Shown here in pieces: positions 363 through 63,814 of a stretch of 64,000 nt of DNA (positions are counted from its first letter, which is position 1; each line of letters opens with the position of its first letter). Below the pieces are notes generated by a model. The model was given only the letters and a program-made list of their open reading frames with translations, was not told the origin of the DNA and made no database searches. Both the position numbers and the translations under genes were made by a program. Source of the stretch: Blastocatellia bacterium (GTDB lineage Bacteria > Acidobacteriota > Blastocatellia > Pyrinomonadales > Pyrinomonadaceae); the NCBI GenBank assembly GCA_033856235.1, contig JAWVFI010000078.1, positions 6,062-70,061 on the forward strand, written 5' to 3'.

Positions 363-389
363 TCAACCAAGACCAAGTTTTCGACGAGC

Positions 390-430
390 GCAGCCTCTCC
401 AGCGGAACACCTCCGCCAGGCTGCGTTTTT
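390..430 (+). terminator. Possible intrinsic terminator after rpsB
   Basis: The stem gcagcct (390-396) / aggctgc (418-424) is followed by gttttt. The loop is long (21 nt), so support is only moderate. Confidence 0.4.
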
Positions 431-465
431 GCTATACATAGCGACACAGACCCTGGTCTGTGGAC

Positions 466-528
466 GTAACGCAAACTTTAGTTTGCGGTTTGGGATACGC
501 CAAAGATGCAAACTGAAGTTTGCGTTAC
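466..528. repeat. Palindromic doublet: two GCAAACT-NNN-AGTTTGC hairpins in inverted orientation
   Basis: gtaacgcaaactt (466-478) is the reverse complement of aagtttgcgttac (516-528). Each arm carries its own hairpin (471-486, 508-523). A separate hairpin cacagacc/ggtctgtg lies at 445-462. Confidence 0.8.
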
Positions 529-552
529 ATAAAAGCAGGAAAGAGAGAAACA

Positions 553-1218
553 ATGGGAGACATTACGGCGAGCGGCGTTAAGTCGCTCCGAGAAAAAACC
601 GGCGCCGGCATGATGGAGTGCAAGAACGCCCTCACCGAAGCCGGCGGCAACGAGGAACAGGCGATAGACATTCTCCGCAAGCGCGGTTTGGCTTCAGCCA
701 AGAAGCGAGAAGGCAGGATCGCCGCGGAAGGCGCTGTCGGGTCATACATCCATATGGGTGGAAAAGTCGGCGTGCTGGTCGAAGTCAATTGTGAAACTGA
801 CTTCGTCGCTCGCAGCGAAGAGTTCCAGCAGCTAATCAAGGACATTGCGATGCATATTGCGGCGGCCGAACCTCGTTTTGTGAGCCGCGATGAAGTCACG
901 ACTGAGGCGTTGGATAAAGAGCGTGAGATTGCGCGCGCGCAAGCGCGGAACGATCCCAAGAACGCCAGTAAGCCCGACCAGGTGATCGATAAGATCGTCG
1001 AGGGTCGTCTCAATAAGTTTTATGAAGAGGCCGTCCTGCTGGATCAGCCCTTCGTAAAAGACCCGGCCAAGACCGTCGGCGAACTGGTTACCGAGAAAGT
1101 CGGAAAAACCGGCGAGAAGATAACTGTGCGCCGCTTCTCTCGATACAAGATGGGCGAGGGATTGGCGAAACGCGATGAGGATTTCGGAGGCGAAGTCGCC
1201 GCCTTGGCGGGAAACTAG
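553..1218 (+). CDS. tsf: Translation elongation factor Ts
   Basis: [45 protein letters not shown] is the typical EF-Ts N-terminus. The ATG at 553 is preceded by aggaaagagag. The ORF-track start at 520 would read through a hairpin repeat. Confidence 0.95.
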
Positions 1219-1289
1219 GGAAAAGGAATTCAGGTTGTCTGGGCCCGAATGACCTTCGGGCGTAACCTGAGTTTGGAAACCTGAAAAGC

Positions 1290-2057
1290 ATGTCAGCCAA
1301 CAACATCAGCGCCAAAGGGGACAGATCCGCCTATCGCCGGATTCTCCTGAAGATCTCCGGCGAGGCGTTGATGGGCGAACAGAACTACGGCATTGACGTT
1401 CAGGTCGCTCGCAATGTGGCCGAAGAGATCAAAGCCGTCCAGGCGCTGGGCGTGCAAATCGCCGTCGTCGTCGGCGGCGGCAATATCTTTCGCGGCGTCT
1501 CCAAGAGCGCGGGCGACATGGATCGTTCTTCGGCCGATTACATCGGCATGCTCGCCACGGTGATGAACGCGGTGGTGTTGCAGGACGCGCTGGAAAAAGT
1601 TGATGTCAAAACCCGGGTCTTGTCTGCTATCGACATCCCGCAACTGGCTGAGTCCTTTATTCGGCGGCGCGCCGTGCGTCACCTGGAAAAGGCGCGAGTA
1701 GTTATTTTTGCCGCCGGCACCGGCAATCCTTATCTCACCACAGACACCGCCGCCGCCCTGCGAGCTCTGGAAATCAAGGCGGACGTGATCTTGAAAGCTA
1801 CCAAGGTCAAGGGTGTTTACTCCGCCGATCCCATGACTCATCCGGATGCCGTCCGCTATGATTGCATTACTTACCAGGAAGTGCTGGAAAAGCAATTGAA
1901 AGTCATGGATGCGTCGGCCATCTCGCTTTGCATGGACAACAACCTGCCGATCGTAGTCTTTAATATGCGCGAGTCCGGAAACATCATGCGCGTCGTCCAG
2001 GATCAACCCGGCGTTGGGACGCTTGTCTGTTTGCAGAAACCCGGACCGAAGTCCTAA
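1290..2057 (+). CDS. pyrH: UMP kinase
   Basis: [15 protein letters not shown] and [11 protein letters not shown] motifs, about 255 aa, positioned between tsf and frr. Confidence 0.95.
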
Positions 2058-61298: not shown

Positions 61299-61325
61299 CA
61301 GCGATATTTCGCGAAAATGAACAGG

Positions 61326-61814
61326 TTAGCCCAATGAGTCCTCTTTGATCTTGTTTTCCAGGAAGCGGCGATCCATCAAATCCTTTTCTCTATACGTTTG
61401 TTTCGTTCTGAGTAACAGCTTGGCAGAGGCAAACGGGATAGGAATGCCCTGAATCGTATGAAATTCAATTCCGTCCTTAGCGTCATCGTATGTAAGACCG
61501 CCGGCGGACAGCATGAGGTCAACGACAATTTCATCGGCCACACGGACGACGAGAAAGCGATCGAGATCAGAGGAGTTCATTTCCCGTACGGCCTTGTCCG
61601 GAAGAATCTCAAGAGCGGCGCGGACTCTTTCCTGGTTTCCTCGCGTTTTCTCGATTAGAAGGTCGATATCCTCCGTGGCACGCAGGAAACCTAGCCGGTT
61701 AACTGCCATACCGCCGATGACGATATAAAGCGCGGCATTAACGTTGAGCGCCTGGCACAGTTTTATTAAGTCGATTTGCTCTGCGGGTCTGGGTGGAGAA
61801 GCTTGGTTTTCCAT
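61326..61814 (-). CDS. Putative nucleotidyltransferase-fold protein (AbiEii/DUF6036-like)
   Basis: 162 aa. YIVIGGMAVNRLGFLRATEDIDLLI resembles the G-x...D-x-D minimal nucleotidyltransferase motif. The C-terminal LLRTKQTYREKDLMD is typical of such stand-alone NTases. Confidence 0.55.
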   Translation of the reverse strand: MENQASPPRPAEQIDLIKLCQALNVNAALYIVIGGMAVNRLGFLRATEDIDLLIEKTRGNQERVRAALEILPDKAVREMNSSDLDRFLVVRVADEIVVDLMLSAGGLTYDDAKDGIEFHTIQGIPIPFASAKLLLRTKQTYREKDLMDRRFLENKIKEDSLG

Positions 61815-61978
61815 TCTTCGAAGTCCTCGAAACTTTTGAAACGAAAGACTCCTTTAGGGCAGATCGCACGTCCCAAAAGAACGTGTGCCGTTCGTTGCAG
61901 GCGGTCAAACCGCTCCCAATGTGAAGGGAGGTTGCGACCGCCTAAAACCTTCATTTCTTTTCCTGATTCTGAAGACAT
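61766..61978 (-). CDS. Small hypothetical protein upstream of, and overlapping, the NTase-like gene
   Basis: 70 aa with the motif KGVFRFKSFEDFEEW. It overlaps the downstream ORF by 49 nt and has lower GC than neighbours. Coding status is uncertain. Confidence 0.4.
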   Translation of the reverse strand: MSSESGKEMKVLGGRNLPSHWERFDRLQRTAHVLLGRAICPKGVFRFKSFEDFEEWKTKLLHPDPQSKST

Positions 61979-62032
61979 TTTTCTCTGGACCTAATTCTAA
62001 CTCATCCGAGCTCGCGGTAGGAATGCGAGCTA

Positions 62033-63643
62033 TCAGATCGTCACCGCTTCGCGATATTCGCCCCACACATTGCGCAACCTATTGCTGATCTCTCCCACCG
62101 TCCCGTAAGCCTCAACGCAATCCAGAATGCGCGGCAGGAGGTTTTCGTTTCCGCGCGCGGCCTCTTCAAGTTTCGCCAACGCGGCTTCCACCACGGCGGC
62201 ATCGCGGCGGGCGCGCACCGCGTGTAGGCGCTCGATTTGTTCCTGTTCAATCTTCGGTTCGACGCGCAGCACGGACATCGACGAATCCTCTTCAACCTGA
62301 AAACTGTTTACGCCAACGACAATCGCATCTTTTGTTTCGACCGCGCGCTGGTAATCATAGGCGGCCTGCTGGATTTCGCGCTGCACGTATCCGGTTTCGA
62401 TGGCGTGCAGCATTCCGCCCATGGCGTCAATGCGATCGAGATACTTCACGGCGCGGCTTTCGATCTCATCGGTCAGATGTTCGATGGCGTACGAGCCGGC
62501 CAGGGGATCGACCGTGTCCGCAACACCTGATTCGTGCGCGACGATTTGCTGCGTGCGCAACGCGACGCGCGCCGCCGTCTCCCCAGGCAAGCCCAGCGCC
62601 TCGTCCATCGCATTTGTGTGCAGCGACTGCGTGCCGCCCAGTACTGCCGCAAGGGCCTGGATGGTGGTGCGCACCACGTTCACTTCCGGCTGTTGGGCCG
62701 TCAGCGTCGAGCCCGCCGTCTGGGTATGGAAACGCAGCATCAGCGAACGGGGATCGCGGGCCCCAAAGCGCTCGCGCATCAGGCGCGCCCAAAGACGCCG
62801 CGCGGCGCGGAACTTGGCAATCTCTTCGAGCAGATTGTTATGCGAATTGAAAAAGAACGAAATGCGCGCCGCGAAGTCATCAACCTGCAAGCCCGCGGCC
62901 ACCGCTGCATCGACGTAAGCAATGCCATCAGCGAGGGTGAAGGCTACTTCCTGAACCGCTGTCGAGCCGGCTTCGCGAATGTGATAACCGCTGATAGAGA
63001 TCGTGTTCCACTCCGGAACTTCACGGGCGCAGAAAGCAAAAGTGTCGGTGACCAAACGCAGCGAAGGCGCGGGTGGAAAAATGTAAGTACCGCGAGCGAT
63101 GTACTCCTTCAGGATATCGTTCTGAATCGTCCCACCAAGTTTCGTAAACGGAATGCCATTCTTTTTGGCCACCGCCAGATAGAGACACAACAAAGTGGAG
63201 GCGGTGGCATTGATGGTCATCGAGGTGGTCACGCTATCGAGCGGAATCCCCTCGAACAGGCGCAACATGTCTTCGAGCGAATCAATGGCCACGCCGACTT
63301 TGCCGACTTCCCCGACTGCCAGTGGATCGTCGGAATCGAGCCCGATTTGCGTGGGAAGATCAAACGCTACGGAAAGTCCGGTAGTGCCCTGGGCCAGCAG
63401 ATACTTGTAGCGGGCATTGGACTCTTCCGCCGTCGCATAGCCCGCATACTGTCGCATGGTCCACAAGCGGCCGCGGTACATATTGGGCCGGATGCCGCGC
63501 GTGTAGGGAAACTGCCCCGGCGCGGCCAGGTCGCGGTCGTAATCCGGAGCTTCAGTGTTCGCCGGATTGAAATCGGCGGGCAGTTCGATCCCCGAAGATG
63601 TCTCGAAATGCTCGCGACGCTCGCTAATGGTCTTTGTGGGCAT
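62033..63643 (-). CDS. Methylmalonyl-CoA mutase family large subunit (catalytic TIM-barrel domain only, no B12-binding domain)
   Basis: [46 protein letters not shown] and [11 protein letters not shown] motifs. I chose the start at [13 protein letters not shown] (63643); the ORF-track start at 63685 reads through a GTAG hairpin. Confidence 0.9.
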
Positions 63644-63657
63644 TTGTTTCCGATGAG

Positions 63658-63814
63658 TGTAGGACAGGCATTCTTGCCTGTCCACCGTTAGGCAGGAGGC
63701 AGGGGCAGTAGGCAGGAGCAGGGCCGGTGTTACGTTGCCATTAGAGCTTTACCTGGTGACTCCTCCGGCCGACTGGCTCCTGCCGACTGCTTCTGCCTCC
63801 TGCCTCCCGCCTCC
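63658..63814. repeat. GTAG hairpin followed by a GCAGGAG/CTCCTGC-word inverted repeat
   Basis: The hairpin is gtaggacaggcattcttgcctgtcc (63658-63684). Then ggcaggaggcaggggcagtaggcaggagcaggg (63691-63723) pairs with ggctcctgccgactgcttctgcctcctgcctcccgcctcc (63775-63814). Confidence 0.8.

What the first reader, a model, noticed from the sequence alone, without database searches (positions are those of the whole stretch)
363..63814. Nearly every intergenic spacer over ~60 nt holds a palindromic doublet element, from more than ten unrelated sequence families
Reading each spacer in turn, I found two-armed inverted-repeat elements at these positions:
- 466-528, 24597-24696, 25201-25293, 25407-25513
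- 27361-27436, 35369-35582, 37957-38070, 38611-38698
- 38959-39052, 41536-41649, 42096-42202, 42911-43042
- 44849-45020, 46334-46369, 46908-47055, 49488-49691
- 53501-53588, 54847-54986, 56283-56841, 60160-60294, 63658-63814

Several families recur within the window. Family A occurs twice, family B three times, and the TTCGTGA-word family twice plus one half copy. Some arms start with GTAG followed by a hairpin (24598, 38038, 52143, 63658). That is the hallmark of REP sequences mobilised by RAYT (Y1) transposases, and the doublet layout matches REPIN/BIME organisation. The number of distinct families in 64 kb seems unusually high.
Basis: partly seen in the sequence, partly recalled or inferred. 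Interest (0 to 1): 0.6.

Follow-up and report, generated by a model that had tools for sequence, protein, structure and literature searches.

The report
Three kinds of mobile palindromic repeats
About half of the gaps between genes in this soil acidobacterium hold small hairpin-forming DNA repeats of three kinds: classic REP doublets tied to their own tyrosine transposases, and two kinds of palindrome built from short repeated words that elsewhere enclose a small gene. The first kind is known and unusually diverse here, and the other two are barely described.

Summary
**Observation.** All 21 listed elements are real, strongly folding palindromes that belong to repeat families spread across the 4.8-Mb genome, a Pyrinomonadaceae, Acidobacteriota. 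The genome holds 954 inverted repeats against 47 in a simulated genome. "Nearly every spacer" is overstated: 19 of 35 window spacers of at least 60 nt carry such repeats, and 55% do genome-wide.

**REP/RAYT reading.** This is right for the hairpin-armed families. The genome has nine Y1 (HUH-tyrosine) transposase genes, and eight are bracketed by inverted copies of one family each. Window families 0 and 1 have their gene in this genome. Families 3, 4 and 12 bracket RAYT genes in sister species. At least 13 gene–repeat pairs exist in the genus, drawn from all three TnpA-Y1 classes.

**Word-array elements.** Nine of the 21 elements are a different thing:
- Seven have arms made of tandem 7-nt words. 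The same design encloses every four-helix-bundle (PF05635, 23S-IVS protein) gene, including the one at 56283-56841.
- Two have ~9-nt CACGAA-type words. This is the design that encloses GxxExxY nuclease genes.

**Mobility.** Orthologous spacers in four congeners carry different families or are empty, so the elements come and go.

**Verdict.** A known kind, very diverse here, plus two poorly described cassette classes.

The parts
466..528 (.). Class I REPIN, family 1 (arm GTAACGCAAACTTTAGTTTGCG). Its cognate RAYT gene is at genome contig C35:7033-7773.
   Evidence: Fold -38.2. 83 arm matches on 39 contigs. A perfect 24-nt inverted repeat of this family brackets the C35 RAYT.
24597..24696 (.). 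Class I REPIN, family 4 (T-GTAG-GGGYGGNCCTCCGTGGCCRCCCC), a classic GTAG REP doublet.
   Evidence: Fold -74.1. 75-95 arm matches. Family 4 doublets bracket a RAYT in sister genome G001:C140.
25201..25293 (.). Class I REPIN, family 0 (GT-CAGA-ACCGCCTGC-GGTA-GCGGGCGGT), the REP of a class 3 TnpA-Y1.
   Evidence: Fold -57.3. About 180-210 arm matches on 72-76 contigs. A perfect 33-nt inverted repeat of this family brackets the Y1 gene C4:2987-3544.
25407..25513 (.). Class III word-array palindrome (TTCGTGA / TCACGAA words, about 9-nt spacing), no cargo gene.
   Evidence: Fold -47.2. 45 matches on 31 contigs. CACGAA-type word arrays bracket PF13366 genes in relatives.
27361..27436 (.). Class II heptamer-array palindrome (GCAAAGG / CCTTTGC words), weak.
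   Evidence: Fold -24.6. Family 26 has period-7 arms.
35369..35582 (.). Composite nested hairpin element (family 29 outer arms with an inner inverted repeat).
   Evidence: Fold -105.5. Outer arm found on 7 contigs.
37957..38070 (.). Class I REPIN, family 18 (GTAG-GGAGCCCTCCC hairpin in the right arm).
   Evidence: Fold -81.1. 24 matches on 16 contigs. The orthologous spacer holds other families in G001, G003 and G004.
38611..38698 (.). Class I REPIN, family 4.
   Evidence: Fold -57.4. 95 arm matches.
38959..39052 (.). Class I REPIN, family 0.
   Evidence: Fold -73.0. 192 arm matches, median identity 100%.
41536..41649 (.). Class II heptamer-array palindrome (GGTAAAT words), no cargo. The same word brackets the PF05635 gene at C118:28356-28718.
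   Evidence: Fold -53.9. Family 36 has period 7. C118 cassette.
42096..42202 (.). Class III word-array palindrome (TTCGTGA words), degenerate.
   Evidence: Fold -32.5. The spacer has 112 genome matches.
42911..43042 (.). Class I REPIN, family 3 (ACTGGGAGCGCGGGCGTCCCGCCCGC).
   Evidence: Fold -73.7. 61 doublets genome-wide. Family 3 arms bracket RAYT genes in G003:C1 and G004:C22.
44849..45020 (.). Class II heptamer-array palindrome (GTAAACC / GTGAACC words), no cargo.
   Evidence: Fold -60.6. It shares only the word arrays with the gene-bearing cassette at 56283. The orthologous palindrome is present in G003 only.
46334..46369 (.). Short class II heptamer array (GATCTCA words).
   Evidence: Fold -11.3. 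17 matches. This spacer is 5-10 nt long in G001, G003 and G004.
46908..47055 (.). Class II heptamer-array palindrome (AGTTTCG words).
   Evidence: Fold -62.6. Family 15 has period 7 in all members. Conserved in G003 and replaced by other words in G001 and G004.
49488..49691 (.). Composite three-hairpin element (family 7 outer arms AAATCTCATTAGCACC with an inner AACCGTTTTAACGGTT hairpin).
   Evidence: Fold -97.6. 55 and 26 matches for the outer and inner parts.
52143..52167 (+). Single family 12 REP (GTAG-CACAGGCATTCCTGCCTGTCC) starting in the stop codon of the upstream gene.
   Evidence: Sequence read directly. Family 12 brackets RAYT genes in G003:C14 and G004:C193.
53501..53588 (.). Class I REPIN, family 1 (ATGTCCGACAAACTTCAGTTTGTCG).
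   Evidence: Fold -45.1, perfect 25-nt arms. In G003 the same spacer holds a heptamer palindrome instead.
54847..54986 (.). Class I REPIN, family 6 (TTTGGAGTGCGSYGACCTGTCRSCGCTTTG).
   Evidence: Fold -76.3. 55 matches on 35 contigs. The same spacer holds a family 4 REPIN in G001 and a family 19-like hairpin in G004.
56283..56841 (+). Class II cassette with cargo: inverted GTAAACC / GTGAACC arrays (56283-56326 and 56799-56841) around the four-helix-bundle gene.
   Evidence: 43-nt arms, 40 paired. It is inserted exactly between two genes whose stop and start overlap (TAATG) in G002 and G004.
56409..56780 (+). Four-helix-bundle protein gene (PF05635 / TIGR02436, 23S rRNA IVS protein family; weak match to Avd).
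   Evidence: PF05635 140 bits. TIGR02436 131 bits.
60160..60294 (.). Class I REPIN, family 0, with class II heptamer words (GCAAAGA / CCTTTGC) nested in its loop.
   Evidence: Fold -83.7. 209 arm matches.
63658..63684 (+). Single family 12 GTAG REP (TGTAGGACAGGCATTCTTGCCTGTCC).
   Evidence: Fold. 63 matches on 46 contigs.
63690..63805 (.). Class II heptamer-array palindrome (GCAGGAG / CCTGCCT words). The same word type brackets the disrupted PF05635 gene at C71:44049-44419.
   Evidence: 30-nt arms. Family 17.

Best explanation
The window samples a genome whose intergenic space is colonised by three classes of small palindromic mobile repeats. The genome is a Pyrinomonadaceae, Acidobacteriota.

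**Class I: REP sequences arranged as REPIN doublets** (14 of the 24 parts listed)
- Each arm is itself a short hairpin.
- Each family has a cognate single-copy HUH/Y1 transposase gene bracketed by the same REPs, a 'REPtron'.
- By analogy with E. coli TnpA-REP and IS200/IS605 enzymes, the transposase recognises the folded single-stranded hairpin plus a short 5' foot (GTAG, or CnGA for class 3). It cuts and rejoins there, which spreads the doublets. This step is inferred.

**Class II: palindromes with arms of 3 to 6 tandem copies of a 7-nt word**
- The full form encloses a PF05635 four-helix-bundle gene, as in ORF-bearing 23S rRNA intervening sequences.
- Most copies carry no gene.

**Class III: the analogous design with ~9-nt CAC(R)GA words**
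- Its full form encloses a GxxExxY PD-(D/E)XK gene.

**Shown versus inferred**
- Shown: structure, copy number, gene-repeat linkage, and gain, loss and replacement at orthologous sites.
- Inferred: the transposition chemistry of class I.
- Unknown: how classes II and III move. My best guess is insertion as a hairpin-forming unit into short gene junctions, with the cargo protein binding its own word array.
For: **Reality and excess**
- 954 inverted repeats against 47 simulated.
- 58 multi-copy families.
- 55% of spacers of at least 60 nt, and 3.4% of the genome, are dispersed repeat.

**Class I: gene-repeat linkage**
- There are nine Y1 genes.
- NCBIfam assigns them to REP_Tyr_transpos or IS200.
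- Flanks carry inverted copies of one family each:

| Y1 gene | Flanking family |
|---|---|
| C151 | family 2 |
| C35 | family 1 |
| C4 | family 0 |
| C47 | family 33 |
| C11 | family 20 |
| C127 | family 22 |
| C106 | family 55/24 |
| C30 (pseudogene) | family 5 |

- In congeners, RAYT genes are bracketed by families 3, 4, 9, 12 and 19.

**Class I: the class 3 Y1 gene**
- The C4-type gene is flanked in 39 of 50 Pyrinomonadaceae and Blastocatellia loci by inverted repeats. These share CAGAACCG-nnnGC-GGTA-GCnnn-CGG, with compensatory stem changes.
- It has the Y----Q signature and the CnGA foot of class 3 TnpA-Y1 (PMC6006769).

**Class II**
- 120 inverted repeats have period-7 arms, with about 49 different words.
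- Nine of the 10 PF05635 hits in the genome lie between inverted repeats, nearly all built from heptamer-like tandem words.
- So do 17 of 23 in relatives and 54 of 73 in metagenome contigs.
- Read in the gene's orientation, the words fit GTRANNN in 67 of 75 cassettes.

**Class III**
- 22 of 25 PF13366 genes in relatives are flanked by CAC(R)GA word arrays.
- So is the single PF13366 gene of this genome.

**Mobility**
- Orthologous spacers hold different families in four congeners.
- The PF05635 cassette sits at a junction that is an intact TAATG overlap in two of them.
Against: **No direct evidence of movement**
- No transposition event, excision product or target-site duplication was seen.

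**Class I gaps**
- Several window families (6, 7, 18, 29) have no Y1 gene in this genome or in the relatives I sampled.
- One intact RAYT (C23) has no repeat flanks.
- The share of the master sequence does not track presence of the Y1 gene.

**Classes II and III gaps**
- No enzyme is known for class II.
- The cargo-less heptamer palindrome at 44849 shares nothing but the word arrays with the gene-bearing cassette. A simple deletion origin is therefore not shown.
- Dozens of different words are hard to explain by copy-and-paste alone.
The link may hold for some clades only.
Confidence: 0.78

Rival explanations
1. The palindromes are host regulatory structures, not mobile DNA. On this reading they are transcription terminators, mRNA 3'-end stabilisers or RNase III sites, and their similarity reflects selection for function.
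For: - They sit in spacers, more often between convergent genes (65%) than between divergent genes (44%).
- Once transcribed they would form very stable stems.
- REPs elsewhere are known to affect mRNA stability (PMC3733652).
Against: - Only about 10% have a T-run next to the stem, close to the random rate of 6.5%.
- They also occupy divergent promoter spacers.
- The same orthologous spacer holds unrelated families, or nothing, in sister species.
- Families bracket their own transposase genes.
- There are no Rfam matches.
- A secondary, exapted role is not excluded.
Confidence: 0.1
2. The word-array palindromes (classes II and III) are made locally by replication slippage and template switching at simple repeats. 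On this reading they are not inserted as units, and the small genes merely sit in slippage-prone spacers.
For: - There are about 49 different heptamer words, each in few copies.
- Word variants are mixed within one arm.
- Heptamer repeat number varies between Coxiella strains (PMC4990558).
- The cargo-less copy shares no unique sequence with the full cassette.
Against: - The 559-nt cassette with its gene appears as a unit between two genes that overlap by TAATG in two congeners.
- The word type follows the phylogeny of the cargo protein across metagenome contigs.
- The 7-nt design goes with PF05635 genes and the ~9-nt CAC(R)GA design with PF13366 genes. Slippage alone would not produce that pairing.
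- Identical words recur on many contigs.
Confidence: 0.1
3. The elements are artefacts of metagenome assembly, that is, chimeric joins or collapsed repeats.
For: - The genome is fragmented: 189 contigs, the shortest 2,760 bp.
- Repeats of this kind do break assemblies.
Against: - The elements lie inside long contigs. Only 19 of 378 contig ends are within 150 nt of one.
- Gene order around them is conserved in four independently assembled congeners.
- The same families occur in those assemblies and in dozens of other MAGs.
Confidence: 0.02

Closest known systems
REPIN-RAYT systems / REPtrons (E. coli TnpA-REP; Pseudomonas fluorescens SBW25; Stenotrophomonas maltophilia): PMC3116915, PMC3733652, bioRxiv 10.1101/2022.05.22.493013
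   Same: - Short hairpin REPs, some with a 5' GTAG.
- Mostly arranged as inverted doublets that fold into long hairpins.
- Tens to hundreds of extragenic copies.
- One single-copy Y1 gene per family, bracketed by its own REPs.
- Several systems in one genome.
   Different: - The host is an acidobacterium, not a proteobacterium.
- The number of systems is at or above the published maximum: at least 8 genes with their own flanking family in one genome, and at least 13 gene-family pairs in the genus. S. maltophilia has nine across 49 strains.
- IS200-type (class 1) genes also sit in REPtron-like settings here, with 8 to 64 copies of their flanking hairpins.
- Some large families have no gene in this assembly.
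Class 3 TnpA-Y1 with CnGA-footed hairpins (Quentin et al. 2018, PMC6006769; about 600 copies in Solibacter usitatus). Possibly also the acidobacterial 'TIRYT' group of Di Nocera et al. 2013 (PMC3733652); that equivalence was not tested.
   Same: - The C4 and C47 proteins have HUH (NHVHS/T) and the Y----Q signature.
- Their flanking hairpins carry a CAGA or CGGA foot.
- They are high-copy: about 200 arms of family 0.
- The taxa match: Acidobacteria and Planctomycetes.
   Different: - Here the hairpin loop is a conserved GGTA inside GC-GGTA-GC.
- The gene-hairpin linkage is traced across about 40 Blastocatellia genomes with compensatory stem changes.
- In one long-read MAG the same unit is multi-copy, with 100-nt terminal repeats, so it behaves like an IS there.
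ORF-bearing intervening sequences (IVS) of 23S rRNA (Leptospira, Coxiella burnetii S23p; PMC4990558)
   Same: - The same gene family (PF05635 four-helix bundle) lies in the loop of a long stem formed by inverted repeats.
- Coxiella's IVS also has tandem heptamers (GACAGAT) next to the ORF.
- The IVS was proposed long ago to be a mobile element whose mechanism is unknown.
   Different: - Here the cassettes are not in rRNA. They sit in ordinary spacers and operon junctions.
- There are about ten gene-bearing copies per genome, each with a different word.
- More than 100 cargo-less palindromes of the same design exist.
Inverted heptamer arrays of Xanthomonas (GGGAATC; PMC4692102) and heptamer direct repeats of Beggiatoaceae, cyanobacteria and Bacteroidetes (TAACTGA; PMC4679880)
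   Same: - Intergenic tandem 7-nt words.
- In Xanthomonas, 70-75 of them form convergent inverted pairs.
- Heptamers are over-represented among bacterial simple repeats, and the reason is not explained.
   Different: - Those papers name no associated gene family.
- They describe one dominant word per genome. Here there are about 49 words, and the arrays are linked to PF05635 genes.

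Membership tests
REPIN-RAYT / REPtron system | A gene for an HUH/Y1 (IS200-like) transposase of the RAYT type is present in the genome. | tested here: met
   - PF01797 gives 8 hits.
- NF047646 scores above its cut-off for C151 (87 bits) and for the C30 pseudogene (103 bits). 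C23 scores 77 bits and C35 44 bits.
- HUH motifs and the NPV(K/R)AGLV motif are visible in the translations.
REPIN-RAYT / REPtron system | The transposase gene is single-copy and bracketed by inverted copies of the REP family it is associated with. | tested here: met
   - Each Y1 protein has no close paralogue: 54% identity or less in tblastn.
- Flanks of 8 of the 9 genes carry inverted copies of one family each.
- The same holds in congeners for families 2, 3, 4, 5, 9, 12 and 19.
- Exception: C23 has no repeat flanks.
REPIN-RAYT / REPtron system | A REP is a 20-40-nt imperfect palindrome with a conserved 5' tetranucleotide (GTAG/GTGG). | tested here: inconclusive
   - Met for families 4, 12, 18 and 22 (GTAG followed by a hairpin).
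- Family 1 has GTAA or GTCC.
- Families 0 and 33 have a CAGA or CGGA foot (the class 3 type).
- Families 2, 3 and 6 show no obvious tetranucleotide.
REPIN-RAYT / REPtron system | REPs occur mostly as inverted doublets (REPINs), in tens to hundreds of extragenic copies. | tested here: met
   - Doublet counts per family are 94, 92, 76, 61, 54 and so on.
- 75% lie mostly outside ORFs.
- Arm-to-arm complementarity is 0.90-0.97.
REPIN-RAYT / REPtron system | The transposase cleaves and rejoins single-stranded REP DNA, and REPINs transpose. | not testable with these tools
   Only indirect evidence exists: orthologous spacers of four congeners hold different families or none.
Class 3 TnpA-Y1 (Quentin et al. 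2018) | HUH plus the Y----Q signature, flanking hairpins with a CnGA foot, and high-copy hairpins. | tested here: met
   - C4 has NHVHS and YVLYGQ. C47 has NHVHT and YVDYEQ.
- The feet are GT-CAGA-ACCG and A-CGGA-ACCG.
- There are about 200 arms.
- The definition is taken from PMC6006769.
- Not done: placing the proteins in that paper's own clusters.
23S rRNA intervening sequence (IVS) with S23p ORF | A PF05635 four-helix-bundle ORF lies inside a long stem formed by inverted repeats. | tested here: met
   - PF05635 140 bits and TIGR02436 131 bits.
- 43-nt arms at 56283-56326 and 56799-56841.
23S rRNA intervening sequence (IVS) with S23p ORF | The element is located in helix 25 or helix 45 of the 23S rRNA gene. 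| tested here: not met
   - The window cassette lies between two protein-coding genes.
- No rRNA is found in the window.
- I did not search this genome's own 23S genes for an IVS.
23S rRNA intervening sequence (IVS) with S23p ORF | The element is excised from the transcript by RNase III. | not testable with these tools
   No RNA data were available.
[quoted passage not shown] | Terminal inverted repeats match those of a DDE-transposase IS in the genome, with target-site duplications. | tested here: not met
   - A search for inverted-repeat pairs 400-4000 nt apart found no DDE transposase between arms of any family. The only cargoes were Y1, PF05635, PF13366 and one DUF559 gene.
- No duplication is seen at the filled versus empty site.

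The most novel reading that the evidence does not exclude
The word-array palindromes (classes II and III) would be a distinct, undescribed kind of bacterial insertion cassette.
- The small cargo protein recognises tandem copies of its own strand-specific word: GTRANNN for the PF05635 four-helix-bundle pentamer and CAC(R)GA for the GxxExxY PD-(D/E)XK nuclease.
- The cargo protein together with host functions spreads both gene-bearing and empty copies into gene junctions.
- This would explain, in one stroke, the ORF-bearing 23S rRNA intervening sequences and the long-noted excess of 7-nt simple repeats in bacterial intergenic DNA.
Probability: 0.3. Interest if true: 0.8.

Novelty: new variant of a known kind. 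Interest (0 to 1): 0.55.

Why it matters
**REPIN-RAYT biology**
- REPIN-RAYT systems have been worked out almost entirely in Proteobacteria, with one to three systems per genome.
- Here a soil acidobacterial genus carries at least 13 gene-repeat pairs from all three TnpA-Y1 classes side by side.
- That offers a natural comparison of how different Y1 enzymes recognise different hairpins.
- It also shows that IS200-like genes can sit in REPtron-like settings.

**Annotation**
- These repeats fill a quarter of the intergenic DNA.
- They break assemblies and create false ORFs and false start codons.
- They sit inside operons and even inside coding sequence. Annotation and regulatory inference in these common soil bacteria should take them into account.

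**The two word-array classes**
- They tie two small, very widespread proteins of unknown role (PF05635 and PF13366) to specific repeat designs.
- They also provide filled and empty sites.
- That gives a concrete handle on two old questions: what 23S intervening sequences are, and why heptamer repeats abound.

Tried and rejected
- **Population reads or RNA-seq.** I looked for these to see insertion polymorphism or processing sites.
- **RAYT loss and family decay.** I tested whether families whose Y1 gene is present are younger, that is, have a higher share of the master sequence or more perfect arms, than orphan families, as reported for E. coli and Neisseria. There is no clear relation: orphan families 3 and 16 look as young as family 0. 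I make no claim about decay. The missing genes may simply lie on contigs shorter than the 2.76-kb cut-off.
- **Origin of empty heptamer palindromes.** I tested whether the empty copy at 44849 is an internal-deletion derivative of the gene-bearing cassette at 56283. Only the word arrays align, so this is not shown.
- **Other transposases.** I searched for larger inverted-repeat-bounded units (400-4000 nt) to find other transposases. Almost all such pairs are just neighbouring REPINs on either side of ordinary genes.
- **Intrinsic terminators.** Rejected: there is no T-run enrichment.
- **Known RNA families.** Rejected: no Rfam match.
- **CRISPR.** Rejected on sight: these are inverted repeats, not direct repeats with spacers.
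- **Failed search.** A profile of all seven PF05635 paralogues was too divergent to seed the metagenome scan. I used the two closest instead, so that sample is biased toward relatives of the window's gene.

Full report
**Setting.** The window is C78:6062-70061 of a 4.81-Mb, 189-contig genome with 56% G+C. The closest public loci for one of its genes all come from Pyrinomonadaceae and Blastocatellia MAGs (Acidobacteriota), so I take the organism to be a member of that family.

- Every one of the 21 coordinate ranges folds into a long hairpin, from -11 to -105 kcal/mol.
- I built a rough gene model from codon usage and examined each spacer of at least 60 nt.
- Nineteen of 35 contain sequence that recurs elsewhere in the genome, with up to about 220 other copies. 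Most of these (15 of 19) have folding z-scores between -3 and -10.5; the exceptions are the 41807-42351 spacer and the two spacers around the cassette gene at 56409-56780.
- Sixteen contain nothing repeated, and most of those fold no better than shuffles.
- Ten of the 16 empty spacers lie in the first 24.5 kb, so "nearly every spacer" is too strong.
- Genome-wide, 1324 of 2415 spacers of at least 60 nt (55%) hold at least 20 nt of repeat with three or more other copies. That is 24% of spacer DNA and 3.4% of the genome.
- A census of inverted repeats (arm at least 16 nt, at least 85% complementary, span up to 700 nt) gives 954 elements, against 47 in a third-order Markov genome of the same size.
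- About 800 of them cluster into 58 multi-copy families, the largest with 94, 92, 76, 61 and 54 doublets.
- Arms from the window recur on up to 76 contigs. The window alone samples about 16 families.

**Two architectures separate cleanly**.
- In about 22 families each arm is itself a stable small hairpin. These are REP-like, and some have GTAG in front of the hairpin.
- In 120 elements the arms have no self-structure and are instead 3 to 6 tandem copies of a 7-nt word. About 49 different words occur.
- A third, smaller group uses looser words of about 9 nt.

**Class I: REP/REPIN with Y1 transposases.** The genome has nine Y1 genes:

| Type | Genes | Basis |
|---|---|---|
| RAYT (NF047646) | C151, C35, C23, and C30 with an internal stop |, 23 |
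| IS200 (NF033573) | C106, C127, C11 | |
| Divergent pair | C4, C47 | |

- Flank analysis shows each gene bracketed by inverted copies of one repeat family: C151 by family 2, C35 by family 1, C4 by family 0, C47 by family 33, C11 by family 20, C127 by family 22, C106 by family 55/24, and the C30 pseudogene by family 5.
- Only C23 has unique flanks.
- Families 0 and 1 account for five of the listed elements: 25201, 38959 and 60160 for family 0, and 466 and 53501 for family 1.
- Window families 3 (42911), 4 (24597, 38611) and 12 (63658, 52143) have no Y1 gene in this assembly.
- In four congeneric genomes, RAYT genes are bracketed by exactly these families: family 3 in G003 and G004, family 4 in G001, family 12 in G003 and G004. 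Families 9 and 19 bracket RAYT genes in G004.
- The shortest contig here is 2.76 kb. A gene of about 0.7 kb between high-copy repeats could easily have been lost from the bin, so its absence is not informative.
- Families 6, 7, 18 and 29 remain without a gene.

**The C4/C47 pair is class 3 TnpA-Y1.**
- These proteins carry NHVH(S/T) and Y-x4-Q.
- Their hairpins have a CAGA or CGGA foot.
- Both features are what Quentin et al. describe for class 3 TnpA-Y1 of Acidobacteria and Planctomycetes (PMC6006769).
- In 39 of 50 full-length loci from other Blastocatellia, the gene is flanked by inverted repeats with the shared pattern CAGAACCG-nnnGC-GGTA-GCnnn-CGG. The stem positions change in a compensatory way between species.
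- That is the signature of a gene and a hairpin evolving together.
- In one long-read MAG the unit is multi-copy with 100-nt terminal repeats, which is IS-like behaviour.

**How unusual is the diversity?**
- Relatives carry 0 to 17 Y1 genes per genome.
- At least 13 gene-family pairs in one genus is at or above the published extreme. S. maltophilia has nine systems across 49 strains and is called "surprisingly diverse".
- Di Nocera et al. had already noted acidobacterial tyrosine transposases with their own repeats (PMC3733652).

**Class II: heptamer-array palindromes.**
- Nine of the ten PF05635 hits in the genome lie between inverted repeats, nearly all built from heptamer-like words, each with a different word. 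C139 has no flanking repeat.
- The window copy is 56283-56841, with the gene at 56409-56780 (TIGR02436, 131 bits).
- The same holds for 17 of 23 PF05635 loci in other Blastocatellia.
- It also holds for 54 of 73 metagenome loci related to the window's protein, down to 39% identity.
- Read in the gene's orientation, the left-arm word can be written GTRANNN in 67 of 75 cassettes, and close protein relatives share words.
- Many of those loci are related, so this is a lead and not a statistic.
- Seven listed elements (27361, 41536, 44849, 46334, 46908, 56283, 63690), plus the loop of 60160, belong to this class.
- The published parallels are:
  - the ORF-bearing 23S rRNA intervening sequences, for which Coxiella's is reported to have tandem GACAGAT heptamers next to the S23p ORF (PMC4990558);
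  - the convergent GGGAATC arrays of Xanthomonas (PMC4692102).
- I found no paper that links the arrays to the gene family.
- Earlier notes of this scan report the same cassette in many genomes. They also caution that only a small share of the whole PF05635 family is armed. I did not test that figure.

**Class III: ~9-nt word arrays.**
- The single PF13366 (GxxExxY, PD-(D/E)XK) gene of this genome is flanked by GCAGATTTACGC-type arrays.
- Of 25 such genes in relatives, 22 are flanked by inverted arrays of CAC(R)GA words spaced about 9 nt apart, including CACGAAG.
I therefore read it as the cargo-less form of this class.

**Evidence that the elements come and go.** Gene order around 52-58 kb and 36-49 kb is conserved in four congeners at about 80% nucleotide identity, but the spacers are not:

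| Spacer (window) | This genome | G001 | G002 | G003 | G004 |
|---|---|---|---|---|---|
| after 54845 | family 6 REPIN | family 4 REPIN | – | – | family 19-like hairpin |
| after 53497 | family 1 REPIN | – | – | heptamer palindrome | – |
| 46325-46375 | 51 nt, GATCTCA array | 5 nt | – | 8 nt | 10 nt |
| 56281-56848 | PF05635 cassette | 167-nt class III palindrome | empty (TAATG overlap) | cassette present | empty (TAATG overlap) |

(a dash means not examined or not reported.)
- The heptamer palindromes at 44849 and 46908 are shared only with G003.
- At the empty sites in G002 and G004, the stop and start codons of the two flanking genes overlap as TAATG.
- Elements are also nested in each other's loops: 60160 in this genome, and several cases in relatives.
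- I saw no target-site duplication.

**Rivals.**
- Intrinsic terminators are unlikely: T-runs flank only about 10% of elements, against 6.5% at random positions.
- There are no Rfam matches.
- An assembly artefact is excluded by the conserved synteny and by the same families turning up in independent assemblies.
- Local slippage may well shape the word arrays. It does not explain a gene-bearing unit appearing at an otherwise intact gene junction, nor the pairing of each array design with one gene family.

**Verdict.**
- The REP/RAYT interpretation is correct for the hairpin families and wrong for nine of the 21 elements.
- The REP part is a new, very diverse instance of a known kind.
- The word-array classes are variants of the IVS idea that are barely described in print, and their mechanism is open.

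Noticed in passing
window 38600-43110: About 4.4 kb is absent from the syntenic region of three congeners, where the g38089|PP2C spacer is only 237-1183 nt. The segment carries a small DUF2267-like ORF, an 846-aa HerA/AAA-like ATPase gene (39054-41594, minus strand) and a 176-aa ORF with no Pfam match. REPINs of families 4, 0 and 3 bound and interleave it. It could be an inserted gene block, possibly defence-related.
   Followed up: partly
window 28620-28800: Heptamer-word DNA lies inside the long ORF 27895-29301: GCAGGAG words, then CCTTTGC and CCCTTAGC words. The same words form intergenic palindromes elsewhere, so an element seems to be carried in frame within a coding sequence.
   Followed up: partly
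genome contig C16:16190-16889 (outside the window): A DUF559 (Vsr-like endonuclease, PF04480, 129 bits) gene lies between 23-nt inverted repeats. It is another small nuclease gene in a palindromic cassette, present as a single copy.
   Followed up: partly
L054, L059-L063, L066, L070, L072 (Blastocatellia MAG MFD09848.bin.2.92): The class 3 Y1 gene is present in at least ten copies there, each with nearly identical 100-nt terminal inverted repeats that contain the GGTAGCG hairpin. The same gene-hairpin unit therefore behaves as a proliferating insertion sequence in that genome, but as a single-copy REPtron here.
   Followed up: no
window 52213-58105: The four genes around the family 1, family 6 and PF05635 elements are paralogues of each other (cross-hits at 67-78% nucleotide identity). 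They form a tandem array whose internal junctions are the insertion sites.
   Followed up: no
window 29594-34490: A low-GC stretch (45-49% against 56% for the genome) covers three co-directional genes. It has no palindromic elements in its internal spacers.
   Followed up: no
window 25659-27479, 39054-41594 and 62033-63685 (all minus strand): The longest-ORF starts of these genes run into palindromic elements (27361, 41536, 63658). The elements create false N-terminal extensions, and the true starts are probably further downstream.
   Followed up: no
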